Below are positions 51,001-54,000 of a stretch of 64,000 nt of DNA, piece after piece. The DNA is taken from the NCBI RefSeq assembly GCF_013167455.1, contig NZ_CP038328.1; one strand, 5' to 3'. The stretch comes from Escherichia coli O157:H7 (GTDB lineage Bacteria; Pseudomonadota; Gammaproteobacteria; Enterobacterales; Enterobacteriaceae). Position numbers: made by a program. Position 1 is the first letter of the stretch, and each line of letters starts with the position of its first letter.

Positions 51001-54000
51001 TTGCGCCGCCAGGAATGAAAGCCAGCTATTTTTCCGCCCAGTCATTAGGCTGGTTGGGCGCAGCGGTAAATCCATTAGTGAGTGGTGTTGTACTTACCAC
51101 TCTCCCGTCGTCTTCGCTGTTTATCATTCTGGCGTTAGTCATCATTGCCGCGTGGGCGCTGATGTTAAAAGGTATTAACGCCAGACCCCAGAGGCAACCA
51201 GCACTCTGTTGACGTTCGTGCCGTTCCACTACTGGCACGGCTTCGCTAATCATTATTCTGAGGCAAAGGCATAGCCTTCATCTTCCCAGCCGGTTATCCC
51301 GCCGAGCATGATTTTAACCGGCTTTCCGAGTCGAGCCAGTTTGAGTGCCGCACGGTCTGCACCGTTACAATGTGGCCCCGCGCAATACACCACAAATAGC
51401 GTATCGTCGGGCCATTCGGCCATTCTTTCTGCGGTCATTTGCTTATGGGGTAAATGGAGAGCGCCTGGGATATGCCGACGCGCGAAGTCCTCTTCACGTC
51501 CAACCACATGAAGTAAAACGAAATCATCGCCAATATAAGCCAGAGAGTCATGAACATCGGCGCAATCTGTTTCGACACTCAAGCGCGCGAGAAAATGCGC
51601 CTCAGCAACTTCTGGCTTCGCTGTGGTAAATTCAGTGACATAACGCATATTGCTTTGTCCTTTTGGTTTGTTGTGTTAACAATAATGTAACTAATCTACC
51701 TTTCACTGACCGCCTCTCGATATGCCAGAAATGAGCAAAATGATGACAACGTTACAACGTCCGCTGGTCATTGCACTGGCATATGACGGGCTATGTACTT
51801 TTGAATTTGGCGTTGCCGTTGAAATATTCGGCCTGCCACGACCGGAACTGGGCGATAACTGGTATCGTTTTGCTGTTGCTGCGGTAGAACCAGGTGCGCT
51901 ACAAGCCACCGGGGGGATCCACGTGGTTGCTGATGGTGGACTGGAGTTATTGCCCAACGCCGATATGATTATTATTCCTGGCTGGCGCGGAATAGATGCC
52001 AAAGTGCCGGAGATGCTATGCCAGTCATTGCGCGAGGCACACCAGCGCGGTACTCGCCTGGTATCAATATGCTCTGGCGTGTTTGTCCTTGCTGCTGCGG
52101 GCCTTCTTCATCAGCGAAAAGCAACCACCCACTGGCGCTACACTGAACAACTCCAGCACCGTTACCCTTCAATCAGCGTAAGTGACAATGTGTTATATCA
52201 GGATGAAGGACAAGTGATGACCTCCGCCGGAAGCGCCGCGGGGATCGATCTGTGTTTACATATCGTGCGCAAAGATTTTGGTCATGAGATTGCTAATAAT
52301 GTCGCCCGGCGACTGGTCATTCAGCCACATCGCCAGGGGGATCAACCACAAAATCTGACGCGCCCAATGGCCTCACCGCGTGAAAGCCAGACGTTAGGTG
52401 CCTTATTCGACTTTTTGCAGCAGAATCTGGCACAAACACATACTGTGTCTTCCCTCGCCGAACGGGTAAATATGAGTCCGCGCACTTTTTTAAGACGTTT
52501 TGAGGCGTTAACTGGCATGACGCCCGCCCGCTGGCTGCTCAATGAGCGCTTAATACGAGTACAGGATTATCTGCAAAATTCGGTTTTTAACATCGAGAAA
52601 ATTGCCGAGCTGACGGGTTTTGGCAATTCAGCGTTATTGCGTCATCACTTTCACCAACGTTTTTTATTATCTCCTTCGCAATATCGCAAAAACAGCCGTT
52701 CCCCATCACAATAATCGCCTGATTCAGCCTTTGTTTAGATAACCTCTGCTAATATCTTTCTCATTGAGATAAAAATTAAGGTAAGCGAGGAAACACACCA
52801 CACCATAAACGGAGGCAAATAATGCTGGGTAATATGAATGTTTTTATGGCCATACTGGGAATAATTTTATTTTCTGGTTTTCTGGCCGCGTATTTCAGCC
52901 ACAAATGGGATGACTAATGAACGGAGATAATCCCTCACCTAACCGGCCCCTTGTTACAGTTGTGTACAAGGGGCCTGATTTTTATGACGGCGAAAAAAAA
53001 CCGCCAGTAAACCGGCGGTGAATGCTTGCATGGATAGATTTGTGTTTTGCTTTTACGCTAACAGGCATTTTCCTGCACTGATAACGGATCGTTGACACAG
53101 TAGCATCAGTTTTCTCAATGAATGTTAAACGGAGCTTAAACTCGGTTAATCACATTTTGTTCGTCAATAAACATGCAGCGATTTCTTCCGGTTTGCTTAC
53201 CCTCATACATTGCCCGGTCTGCTCTTCCAATGACCACATCCAGAGTCTCTTCAGGAAATGCGCGACTCACACCTGCTGTCACGGTAATGTTGATATGCCC
53301 TTCAGAATGTGTGATGGCATGGTTATCGACTAACTGGCAAATTCTGACACCTGCACGACATGCTTCTTCATCATTAGCCGCTTTGACAATAATGATAAAT
53401 TCTTCGCCCCCGTAGCGATAAACCGTTTCGTAATCACGCGTCCAACTGGCTAAGTAAGTTGCCAGGGTGCGTAATACTACATCGCCGATTAAATGCCCGT
53501 AGGTATCATTAACCAATTTAAATCGGTCAATATCCAACAACATTAAATAAAGATTCAGAGGCTCAGTGTTGCGTAACTGATGATCAAAGGATTCATCAAG
53601 AACCCGACGCCCCGGCAATCCCGTCAAAACATCCATATTGCTACGGATCGTCAGCAAATAAATTTTGTAATCGGTTAATGCCGCAGTAAAAGAAAGCACC
53701 CCCTCCTGAAAGGCGTCGAAATGCGCGTCCTGCCAGTGATTTTCAACAATAGCCAGCATTAATTCCCGACCACAATTATGCATATGTTGATGGGCAGAAT
53801 CCATTAGCCGAACGTAAGGTAATTCATCGTTATCGAGTGGCCTCAGATGATCAATCCACCGACCAAACTGGCACAGTCCATAAGAATGGTTATCCGTTAT
53901 TTCTGGCTTACTGGCATCTCTCGCGACCACGCTGTGAAACATACTCACCAGCCACTGATAGTGGGCATCGATAGCCTTATTGAGATTTAACAAGATGGCA

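What the first reader, a model, noticed from the sequence alone, without database searches (positions are those of the whole stretch)
52822..53095. PhoPQ-regulon small-gene pair: 31-aa MgtS and a probable MgrR sRNA with convergent terminators
A 31-codon ORF with a strong RBS encodes a peptide matching MgtS, too short for the ORF track. About 70 bp beyond its terminator, a minus-strand terminator (stem plus T8) closes a roughly 100-nt unit with no ORF, consistent with the Hfq-dependent sRNA MgrR. These are easily missed by ORF-based annotation.
Basis: partly seen in the sequence, partly recalled or inferred. Interest (0 to 1): 0.3.

Follow-up and report, generated by a model that had tools for sequence, protein, structure and literature searches.

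The report
Known mgtS–mgtT / MgrR magnesium-stress locus

Summary
The finding is real, correctly interpreted and already known. mgtS is at 52822-52917 (+): 31 aa, GGAGG 6 nt upstream of the ATG, NCBIfam equivalog 79.9 bits against a cut-off of 35. MgrR is at 52993-53090 (-): 98 nt, 97/98 identical to the curated K-12 gene b4698. It lies inside the only Rfam hit in the 64 kb window (RF01407 STnc560, 281.9 bits against a gathering score of 55). Sittka 2008 places STnc560 (~90 nt, Hfq-bound) opposite the yneM/mgtS mRNA, so it is MgrR. Two corrections apply. First, the two hairpins are 24 nt apart, not about 70 bp; 75 nt is the distance from the mgtS stop codon. Second, the gap holds a third annotated gene, mgtT (52917-53021, +, 34 aa; start overlaps the mgtS stop as TAATG). 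It reads through the mgtS terminator hairpin and overlaps the last 29 nt of mgrR. In 51 enterobacterial loci both terminators covary, the MgrR seed is invariant, and PhoP-box-like repeats sit 12 nt upstream of both -10 hexamers. The mgtT frame keeps only its start and an acidic/proline-rich N-terminus; its length varies from 7 to 83 aa. Novelty: none. Interest: low.

The parts
52721..52737 (+). PhoP-box-like direct repeat of the mgtS promoter (GATTCAgccttTGTTTA)
   Evidence: Matches KGTTTA-N5-KGTTTA with 2 mismatches. The downstream half-site TGTTTA and the 12-nt spacing to the -10 are conserved in 49 unique enterobacterial promoters. PhoP binding itself was not tested here; PhoQP dependence comes from the literature.
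52750..52755 (+). mgtS -10 hexamer TAATAT; transcription start inferred near 52764
   Evidence: The conserved TAnnnT column sits 12 nt after the box. The 58-nt 5' UTR length is quoted. There is no -35 hexamer and the sigma-70 scan finds no promoter here, which I take (from memory of PhoP promoter architecture) to be usual for PhoP-activated promoters.
52811..52815 (+). Shine-Dalgarno GGAGG of mgtS, 6 nt before the ATG
   Evidence: Read directly from the sequence; a conserved 'ggag' column.
52822..52917 (+). mgtS (formerly yneM): 31-aa MgtS, MLGNMNVFMAILGIILFSGFLAAYFSHKWDD
   Evidence: ORF. NF033842 79.9 bits against 35 and PF22865 86.3 bits against 27. RefSeq annotates mgtS at the homologous position. 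Always 31 aa in 51 loci. Codon-position entropy 0.27/0.08/1.01, which indicates strong purifying selection.
52917..53021 (+). mgtT: 34-aa MgtT, MNGDNPSPNRPLVTVVYKGPDFYDGEKKPPVNRR; its ATG overlaps the mgtS TAA as TAATG
   Evidence: ORF. Annotated as mgtT in O157 and K-12 (b4775). PF23498 96.3 bits against 27. Identical to K-12 MgtT. Protein detected by Ribo-RET and immunoblot (Weaver 2019) and by PIRT-Seq. PhoQP-dependent, in an operon with mgtS, not membrane-localised, and with no deletion or overexpression phenotype.
52943..52985 (+). Intrinsic terminator of mgtS, lying inside the mgtT ORF: hairpin 52945-52975 (-22.6 kcal/mol) followed by UUUUU at 52979-52983
   Evidence: Inverted repeat with 10-nt arms, 100% complementary; fold. 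RNAalifold on 46 unique loci gives 10 pairs, 7 of them with compensatory double changes, and a T-rich tail in all loci. The simple scan missed it because its loop limit is 8 nt and this loop is 11 nt. The ~190-nt yneM transcript in Salmonella fits termination here.
52993..53090 (-). mgrR: the 98-nt Hfq-dependent sRNA MgrR (Rfam STnc560)
   Evidence: Transferred from K-12 ncRNA b4698 through a gapless alignment; the one difference is at nt 4, window 53087. Inside the RF01407 hit 53124-52911. MFE -25.9 kcal/mol, z = -2.89, with a 5' stem-loop, an open middle and a terminator, matching the probed structure (PMC6239178).
53056..53086 (-). MgrR 5' stem-loop (nt 5-35)
   Evidence: Folds (-11.0 kcal/mol); a stable 5' stem-loop is reported by structure probing. 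It cannot be aligned beyond close relatives.
53037..53055 (-). MgrR A-rich (ARN)n region (nt 36-54, UAAAAGCAAAACACAAAUC), the proposed Hfq distal-face site
   Evidence: Sequence; an (ARN)5 motif in the central single-stranded region is described in PMC6239178.
53023..53036 (-). MgrR seed (nt 55-68, UAUCCAUGCAAGCA), which pairs with eptB and ygdQ mRNAs
   Evidence: U55-A68 is given as the pairing region in PMC6239178. Within this seed the 9-nt core AUCCAUGCA is invariant in 44 unique sequences from about 12 genera, and the flanking seed positions are at least 90% conserved.
52993..53019 (-). MgrR Rho-independent terminator: stem-loop 53019-53000 and U8 at 53000-52993
   Evidence: Scan hit; -13.1 kcal/mol. 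8 conserved pairs, 3 with compensatory changes. The mgtT codons PPVNRR and its stop codon are the antisense of this stem.
52993..53021 (.). 29-bp 3'-3' overlap of the mgtT coding sequence and mgrR
   Evidence: Coordinates from K-12 (1622817-1622845) transferred to the window.
53097..53102 (-). mgrR -10 hexamer TACTGT (-12 to -7 relative to the transcription start at 53090)
   Evidence: Position read; a TG-n-TAnnnT pattern is conserved across genera.
53115..53142 (-). mgrR PhoP-box-like repeats: conserved CGTTTAacattCATTGA (53131-53115), plus an extra upstream half-site AGTTTA (53142-53137) in Escherichia
   Evidence: The YGTTTA-N5-YRTTGA repeat is conserved in most of the 42 promoters examined, about 12 nt upstream of the -10. 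This is the same geometry as at mgtS.

Best explanation
The interval is the E. coli (O157:H7-type) mgtS-mgtT / mgrR locus, a compact convergent module of the PhoQ/PhoP low-magnesium regulon.

From the literature: when Mg2+ is low, phospho-PhoP activates both promoters. The + strand gives a short mRNA for MgtS, a 31-aa inner-membrane protein that binds the Mg2+-importing ATPase MgtA and raises its level. The - strand gives MgrR, a 98-nt Hfq-dependent class II sRNA. Its single-stranded nt 55-68 pair with eptB and ygdQ mRNAs (and with pitA in Salmonella RIL-seq) to repress them, which alters LPS phosphoethanolamine modification. In attaching-and-effacing E. coli MgrR also feeds into GrlA/LEE control.

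Shown here: the exact positions of all elements; family membership by HMM and CM scores; conservation and covariation of both terminators; invariance of the 9-nt core of the MgrR seed; and PhoP-box-like repeats 12 nt upstream of both -10 hexamers.

Also present is mgtT, a 34-aa ORF whose start overlaps the mgtS stop (TAATG). It has been experimentally detected but has no known function. A full-length MgtT requires transcripts that read through the mgtS terminator and into the antisense of MgrR's terminator.
For: Identity: 100% over 601 bp to O157:H7 genomes, whose annotation lists ftrA | mgtS | mgtT | dgcZ. 98% and gapless to K-12, whose curated record lists mgtS b4599, mgtT b4775 and ncRNA mgrR b4698.

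Family scores: MgtS NF033842 79.9 bits against 35 and PF22865 86.3 against 27; MgtT PF23498 96.3 against 27; RF01407 281.9 against 55, E = 1.8e-64, the only Rfam hit in 64 kb.

STnc560 is the same RNA as MgrR: ~90 nt, 29-fold Hfq co-IP enrichment, opposite the yneM transcript.

Structure: the fold matches the probed MgrR structure.

Comparative data from 51 loci: MgtS is always 31 aa; 7 of 10 mgtS terminator pairs are compensatory; 3 of 8 MgrR terminator pairs are compensatory and the seed core is invariant; the PhoP-box geometry is conserved at both promoters.

Function from papers.
Against: Nothing contradicts the identification. The limits are as follows. No expression data exist for this strain. 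PhoP boxes are inferred from sequence and conservation only, and the bare pattern is not enriched in the window (23 matches against 17.0 expected). The primary papers (Moon & Gottesman 2009; Wang 2017; Yin 2019) were not held, so the mechanism is cited from secondary descriptions, and the FtsH-protection detail rests on memory. The window's MgtS carries V11I and MgrR carries U4C relative to K-12. Both are untested but common: the identical sequence is found in many O157 genomes.
Confidence: 0.97

Rival explanations
1. Two-element reading: only mgtS and MgrR are genes, and the 75 nt between them is untranslated 3' UTR and terminator. On this view the mgtT ORF is a chance by-product of two back-to-back hairpins and a tandem stop (TAA-TGA in the mgtS frame).
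For: The C-terminal two thirds of E. coli MgtT is encoded by the terminator arms (RPLV/KGP) and by the antisense of the MgrR terminator. ORF length varies from 7 to 83 aa among 47 loci. Pfam MgtT scores fall from 82 bits in E. albertii to 25-39 in Salmonella and Citrobacter, and to nothing in Kosakonia and Buttiauxella. Codon periodicity is weak: 0.67/0.89/1.09, against 0.27/0.08/1.01 for mgtS. The conserved ATGA also serves as a second in-frame stop for mgtS. There is no deletion or overexpression phenotype.
Against: MgtT has been detected as a protein in E. coli by initiation-complex profiling with immunoblot and by PIRT-Seq, and it is annotated in K-12 and by PGAP. Across the 43 unique indel-free sequences compared (Kluyvera-type loci, duplicates and indel-bearing spacers excluded) the ATG is invariant, codon 4 is always GA[T/C/A] (acidic, with only the wobble base varying), and codon 6 is CC[C/T] in 39 of 43. 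In L008 the tandem stop is lost (TAATGC) but the ATG is kept.
Confidence: 0.35
2. The MgrR-like sequence is a conserved intergenic remnant or terminator region that is not expressed as a functional sRNA in this strain.
For: No transcript data exist for this strain. The 214-nt Rfam model covers promoter, sRNA and the antisense of the mgtS terminator, so a high score partly reflects conservation of the intergenic region.
Against: 97/98 identity to the experimentally characterised K-12 MgrR, with the promoter, seed and terminator all intact. The seed core is invariant across genera, which implies selection on the RNA. MgrR is reported to be active in EPEC/EHEC regulation.
Confidence: 0.02
3. The 31-codon ORF is a chance ORF and not MgtS.
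For: None beyond its small size.
Against: The equivalog HMM score is more than twice its cut-off. The ORF is 31 aa in every one of the 51 loci, with strong third-position-only variation. It has a strong SD.
Confidence: 0.01

Closest known systems
E. coli K-12 MG1655 mgtS (b4599) - mgtT (b4775) - mgrR (b4698), NC_000913.3 1622646-1622914
   Same: Same genes, order, overlaps and lengths. The alignment is gapless, with 2 substitutions across 52822-53090 (MgtS V11I; MgrR nt 4 U to C). MgtT is identical.
   Different: Upstream context differs. Here mgtS is preceded by ftrA and a rhodanese-like gene (51253-52714). In K-12 these are absent and ydeE lies 126 bp upstream of mgtS.
Salmonella STnc560 (= MgrR, Rfam RF01407) and STnc570 (yneM/mgtS mRNA)
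   Same: A convergent pair in the ydeI/ydeE region. The sRNA is ~90 nt and Hfq-bound; the mRNA is ~190 nt. Seed and terminator are conserved. MgrR is among the most abundant Hfq-bound sRNAs inside macrophages.
   Different: Salmonella MgtS differs at the N-terminus (MLGSINLFIVV...). Its mgtT-frame ORF is 41 or 60 aa and reaches the Pfam MgtT cut-off only marginally (27.6 and 24.8 bits, over the first 20 residues).
MgtL leader peptide of mgtA (comparison for the speculative reading only)
   Same: A short PhoP-regulon ORF with an acidic/proline N-terminus (MgtL MEPDPT...; the mgtT frame MNGDNP[SP]P...) placed just upstream of an RNA hairpin. MgtL translation aborts in a Mg2+-sensitive way and controls downstream transcription.
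   Different: MgtL is a 5' leader upstream of its target gene, whereas mgtT is a 3' trailer. MgtT has only one acidic residue. No ribosome destabilisation or stalling was tested. This is a resemblance, not membership.
Natural dual-function RNA SgrS/SgrT
   Same: A small protein and a base-pairing sRNA acting in one stress response. The MgtS and MgrR parts have been fused into a working synthetic dual-function RNA.
   Different: Here the two activities are on separate, convergent transcripts.

Membership tests
MgtS (NCBIfam NF033842 equivalog; Pfam PF22865) | Profile score above the curated cut-off over the full 31 residues | tested here: met
   79.9 bits against 35 and 86.3 bits against 27, residues 1-31 of 31.
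MgtS (NCBIfam NF033842 equivalog; Pfam PF22865) | 31-aa length, a single hydrophobic span and a C-terminal SHKWDD motif | tested here: met
   The sequence shows a hydrophobic stretch V7-F25 and SHKWDD. Membrane localisation is from the literature.
MgtS (NCBIfam NF033842 equivalog; Pfam PF22865) | PhoQP-dependent, low-Mg2+-induced transcription | tested here: inconclusive
   A PhoP-box-like repeat lies 12 nt upstream of the -10 and is conserved across genera. Binding and induction cannot be tested in silico; the literature reports them for K-12.
MgtS (NCBIfam NF033842 equivalog; Pfam PF22865) | Binds MgtA and raises its level | not testable with these tools
   Literature only.
MgrR / Rfam RF01407 STnc560 | Covariance-model score at or above the gathering threshold | tested here: met
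   281.9 bits against 55, model positions 1-214 of 214, E = 1.8e-64.
MgrR / Rfam RF01407 STnc560 | About 98 nt with a 5' stem-loop, an A-rich (ARN)n tract, a single-stranded seed at nt 55-68, and a Rho-independent terminator with a U8 tail | tested here: met
   Fold; the elements are listed and match the probing data; 97/98 identity to b4698.
MgrR / Rfam RF01407 STnc560 | Synteny: convergent with mgtS/yneM | tested here: met
   An MgrR-like sequence was found by blastn immediately downstream of mgtS in 43 of the 51 scan loci; in a separate, stricter search 6 loci had no exact seed match.
MgrR / Rfam RF01407 STnc560 | Hfq binding, PhoP-dependent expression, repression of eptB and ygdQ | not testable with these tools
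   Literature. The only in-silico support is the conserved PhoP-box-like repeat.
MgtT (Pfam PF23498) | Profile score above the cut-off | tested here: met
   96.3 bits against 27, residues 1-34 of 34; identical to K-12 YP_010051185.1.
MgtT (Pfam PF23498) | Start codon overlapping the mgtS stop, out of frame, in the same operon | tested here: met
   TAATG at 52915-52919; the operon statement is.
MgtT (Pfam PF23498) | Conserved as a protein beyond Escherichia | tested here: not met
   ORF length ranges from 7 to 83 aa. Pfam scores are marginal or absent outside Escherichia. This bears on the family's reach, not on this window's membership.
Intrinsic (Rho-independent) terminators, convergent pair | A G+C-rich hairpin followed by a U-tract on each strand, with structure conserved through covariation | tested here: met
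   mgtS: -22.6 kcal/mol plus U5, with 7 of 10 pairs compensatory. mgrR: -13.1 kcal/mol plus U8, with 3 of 8 pairs compensatory. Actual 3' ends were not mapped.
MgtL-type Mg2+-sensing peptide ORF (considered only for the novel reading) | An N-terminal D/E/P cluster that aborts or stalls translation in low Mg2+ and thereby switches an adjacent RNA structure | not tested
   Only the composition (D4, P6, P8; PPP in many genera) and the fixed 26-nt spacing to the hairpin were observed.

The most novel reading that the evidence does not exclude
The evolutionarily conserved part of mgtT may not be the 34-aa protein. It may instead be a short trailer ORF: an invariant ATG fused to the mgtS stop, an acidic residue at codon 4, and prolines at codons 6-8 (PPP in many genera). 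It sits at a nearly fixed 26 nt before the mgtS terminator hairpin, and its stop codon never falls before the base of the hairpin. A ribosome sitting on, or slowed at, codons 6-9 would cover the left arm of the hairpin. Translation of this ORF, which might be sensitive to Mg2+, proline or EF-P as with MgtL, could therefore set the ratio between termination and read-through into the antisense of mgrR. That would couple the output of the two PhoP-controlled regulators.
Probability: 0.1. Interest if true: 0.5.

Novelty: already known. Interest (0 to 1): 0.1.

Why it matters
As a genome-scan result this is a correct call on features that ORF-based tracks miss. It shows the first stage can recognise a 31-codon gene and an sRNA from raw sequence. 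Biologically it adds nothing new: mgtS, mgtT and mgrR are curated in K-12 and have been studied since 2008-2019. The module matters for Mg2+ homeostasis (MgtA stabilisation), for LPS modification (eptB repression), and in attaching-and-effacing E. coli for LEE regulation through GrlA. The one modestly useful by-product is the comparative picture of mgtT. Its C-terminal two thirds is specific to Escherichia and is encoded by terminator sequences, while a short acidic/proline N-terminus and its spacing to the terminator are conserved. That gives a concrete, testable reason for the lack of any MgtT phenotype.

Tried and rejected
I replaced them with the search of protein representatives (20 hits) and a degenerate DNA pattern scan of genome contigs (51 loci).
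- The primary papers PMC2841474, PMC6351178 and PMC5465934 are not held, and no held paper contains both 'STnc560' and 'MgrR'. I established the equivalence from the table in Sittka 2008.
- The sigma-70 promoter scan found nothing in 52600-53300.
- The PhoP-box pattern is not enriched across the window (23 matches against 17.0 expected), so the motif alone is not evidence. I relied on its position and its conservation instead.
- My first assignment of the mgrR PhoP box (53126-53142) was replaced by the repeat that is conserved across genera (53115-53131).
- The MgrR 5' stem-loop could not be tested for covariation because it does not align across genera.
- A small hairpin, GGGAU...AUCCC, that encloses the mgtS stop and the mgtT start in the MFE fold showed no compensatory change when I inspected the alignment by eye. 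I dropped it.
- A permissive Rfam scan of 52600-53300 found nothing else; the best other hit was Hrs13 at 16.2 bits against a gathering score of 52.
- Term-seq literature on this locus: none found.
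Full report
**1. What is at the coordinates**

The + strand carries a 31-codon ORF at 52822-52917, MLGNMNVFMAILGIILFSGFLAAYFSHKWDD. GGAGG at 52811-52815 lies 6 nt before its ATG. On the - strand the terminator scan finds one site in 52600-53300: stem 53019-53000 (8 pairs, 6 G-C, 4-nt loop) followed by a run of U. A second, perfect 10-nt inverted repeat lies on the + strand at 52945-52975. It folds at -22.6 kcal/mol and is followed by UUUUU at 52979-52983. The scan missed it because its loop is 11 nt and the scan allows at most 8.

**2. Identification**

A Rfam scan of the whole 64 kb window at gathering thresholds gives a single hit: RF01407 STnc560, 53124-52911 (-), 281.9 bits against a gathering score of 55, E = 1.8e-64, full length. 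A permissive scan of the local region adds nothing credible.

The 601 bp around the finding are 100% identical to many E. coli O157:H7 genomes. The 331-bp core is present in 5414 of 5426 complete E. coli genomes. PGAP annotation of an identical genome lists ftrA, mgtS, mgtT and dgcZ, but no ncRNA. The curated K-12 record lists mgtS (b4599), mgtT (b4775) and the ncRNA mgrR (b4698).

The K-12 and window sequences align without gaps. This transfers the coordinates as follows:
- mgtS: 52822-52917 (+)
- mgtT: 52917-53021 (+)
- mgrR: 52993-53090 (-)

There are two substitutions inside the finding: MgtS V11I, and MgrR nt 4 U to C.

HMM tests:
- MgtS NF033842: 79.9 bits against a cut-off of 35
- MgtS PF22865: 86.3 bits against 27
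- MgtT PF23498: 96.3 bits against 27

Rfam has no family called MgrR. Sittka et al. 2008 list STnc560 as a ~90-nt RNA enriched 29-fold by Hfq co-IP in the ydeI/ydeE intergenic region. It lies opposite STnc570, described as 'yneM ORF, ~190 nt'. That is the MgrR/mgtS pair.

**3.

The start coordinate is exact, and the end (53095) overshoots the annotated 5' end of MgrR by 5 nt. The terminator with T8 is real, and the 'roughly 100-nt unit' is 98 nt.

The phrase 'about 70 bp beyond its terminator' is wrong. The two hairpins are 24 nt apart (52975 to 53000), and the T-run and the A-run are 9 nt apart. The 75 nt is the distance from the mgtS stop codon to the MgrR 3' end.

mgtT starts at the last base of the mgtS stop (TAATG). 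It reads through the mgtS terminator hairpin: RPLV and KGP are encoded by its two arms. It ends in the antisense of the MgrR terminator stem, overlapping mgrR by 29 bp (52993-53021). MgrR itself contains no complete ORF.

**4. Anatomy of MgrR**

The 98-nt RNA folds into a 5' stem-loop (nt 5-35), an open middle and a terminator hairpin: MFE -25.9 kcal/mol, z = -2.89, with 0 of 200 shuffles folding as well. This matches published nuclease probing, which places an (ARN)5-like A-rich tract and the target-pairing region U55-A68 in the single-stranded centre, followed by a 3' U8 (PMC6239178). In window coordinates:
- seed: 53023-53036
- A-rich tract: 53037-53055
- 5' stem-loop: 53056-53086

**5. Comparative evidence**

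MgtS is too short for the protein-based locus finders. I therefore learned its variability from a representative search and scanned one genome per species with a degenerate pattern of about 51 bits. This gave 51 loci in Escherichia, Salmonella, Citrobacter, Enterobacter, Kosakonia, Cedecea, Kluyvera, Atlantibacter, Phytobacter, Yokenella, Buttiauxella, Pluralibacter and Dryocola.

- MgtS is 31 aa in every locus. Its codon-position entropies are 0.27/0.08/1.01, which indicates strong purifying selection.
- The + strand hairpin begins about +119 to +127 (most often +121 to +124) from the mgtS ATG in most loci where the script found it. RNAalifold on 46 unique sequences predicts 10 pairs, 7 of them with compensatory double changes, and a T-rich tail is always present. 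It is a conserved intrinsic terminator for mgtS.
- For MgrR, the 9-nt seed core AUCCAUGCA is invariant in 44 unique sequences and the rest of the seed is at least 90% conserved. The terminator has 8 conserved pairs, 3 with compensatory changes. The 5' half is too divergent to align.
- Both promoters carry a PhoP-box-like direct repeat 12 nt upstream of the -10 hexamer, conserved across genera. At mgtS it is GATTCAgccttTGTTTA (52721-52737) followed by TAATAT (52750-52755). At mgrR it is CGTTTAacattCATTGA (53131-53115) followed by TACTGT (53102-53097). The bare motif is not enriched in the window, so the evidence here is position plus conservation, together with the published PhoQP dependence.

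**6. How it works**

Steps taken from the literature are marked as such.

- Literature: low Mg2+ activates PhoQ/PhoP, which induces both mgtS and mgrR; the two are transcribed convergently.
- Literature: MgtS is a membrane protein that interacts with the P-type ATPase MgtA and raises its level, and so raises intracellular Mg2+. Protection from FtsH is from my memory of Wang et al. 2017.
- Literature: MgrR is a class II Hfq-dependent sRNA that represses eptB and ygdQ. pitA appears as a target in Salmonella RIL-seq. In EPEC/EHEC it is reported to act through GrlA on LEE1, which is relevant to an O157-type window.
- Shown here: all sequence elements needed for these functions are intact and under selection.

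**7. mgtT**

MgtT was found by initiation-complex ribosome profiling and confirmed by immunoblot (Weaver 2019), and again by PIRT-Seq. [quoted passage not shown]

In my comparison the overlapping ATG is present in 47 of 51 loci. The frame's length among those 47 loci is:

| ORF length | Loci |
|---|---|
| 7-9 aa | 9 |
| 13-15 aa | 13 |
| 21-27 aa | 6 |
| 30-44 aa | 13 |
| 55-83 aa | 6 |

 Only Escherichia has the 34-aa form, with 30 aa in E. whittamii. Pfam MgtT scores drop from 82 bits (E. albertii) to 25-39 (Salmonella, Citrobacter), and then to nothing (Kosakonia, Buttiauxella).

What is conserved is ATGA, GA[T/C/A] at codon 4, CC[C/T] at codon 6, C-rich codons 7-8, and an almost invariant 26-nt spacer to the hairpin. 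Codon periodicity is weak (0.67/0.89/1.09). The ATGA also provides a tandem stop (TAA-TGA) for mgtS.

So either mgtT is a young protein specific to Escherichia, built on terminator sequence, or the conserved part is a short trailer ORF with some other role. The resemblance of its acidic/proline N-terminus to MgtL, and its position just before a terminator, suggest a translation-dependent control of read-through into antisense mgrR. I rate this at about 10%. Nothing tests it here.

**8. Verdict**

Everything at this locus is already known and curated, so interest is low.

Noticed in passing
window 17766-24467: A ~6.7-kb Tn3-family transposon. The annotations under the match are Tn3 transposase, recombinase, IS1133 transposase, aph(3'')-Ib/strA and aph(6)-Id/strB, which is a Tn5393-like streptomycin-resistance element. 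It is inserted in the chromosome relative to O157:H7 PV15-279, at a position that lies inside the frameshifted ECSE_1600-family autotransporter pseudogene of that record. It matches E. coli FRIK1989 (bovine) at 100%.
   Followed up: partly
window ~14038: Relative to O157:H7 PV15-279 the window lacks 618 bp (L003 20131-20748). In that record's annotation this covers hipB and the 5' end of hipA, so the hipBA toxin-antitoxin locus appears truncated here.
   Followed up: no
window 51253-52714: A rhodanese-like gene (131 aa, -) and the AraC-type regulator ftrA (330 aa, +) sit between ydeE and mgtS. Both are absent from K-12, where homology resumes only about 10 bp before the ftrA stop codon.
   Followed up: partly
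window 52778-52790: A block AAGGTAAGCGAGG in the mgtS 5' UTR, upstream of the real SD, is conserved across many genera (consensus a.a..tAag.GAGG) with no start codon after it. Its role is unknown. PIRT-Seq reports an extra translated 'CDS58' upstream of mgtST in K-12.
   Followed up: no
L007, L023, L034, L054 (Kluyvera-type loci): These loci have a divergent MgtS (MPDNMQVF...), no mgtT ATG and no separate mgtS hairpin. The A-run and stem of the MgrR terminator follow the mgtS stop within about 6 nt, which suggests one shared bidirectional terminator.
   Followed up: partly
L005, L011, L017, L022, L033, L048 (Cedecea and allied loci): No exact MgrR seed was found within 384 nt downstream of mgtS. 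L017 keeps an MgrR-like terminator followed by a diverged seed-like sequence (…GGCCATGCAGC…). MgrR may be diverged or lost in this group.
   Followed up: no
L009, L050, L006: Public assemblies labelled 'MAG: Caldithrix sp.' (L009; locus identical to E. coli K-12) and 'Chryseobacterium sp. 18061' (L050; nearly identical to Citrobacter sp. 18056, L049) carry enterobacterial mgtS-mgrR loci. This probably reflects contamination or mislabelling. L006, 'Proteobacteria bacterium CTSoil_132', looks like Kosakonia.
   Followed up: no
window 53018-53095 (+) and 52982-53098 (-): Mechanical ORFs of 25 aa and 38 aa overlap mgrR. The recurring peptide '...NACMDRFVF...' seen in extended mgtT-frame ORFs of other genera is simply the antisense translation of the invariant MgrR seed, not evidence of coding.
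   Followed up: yes
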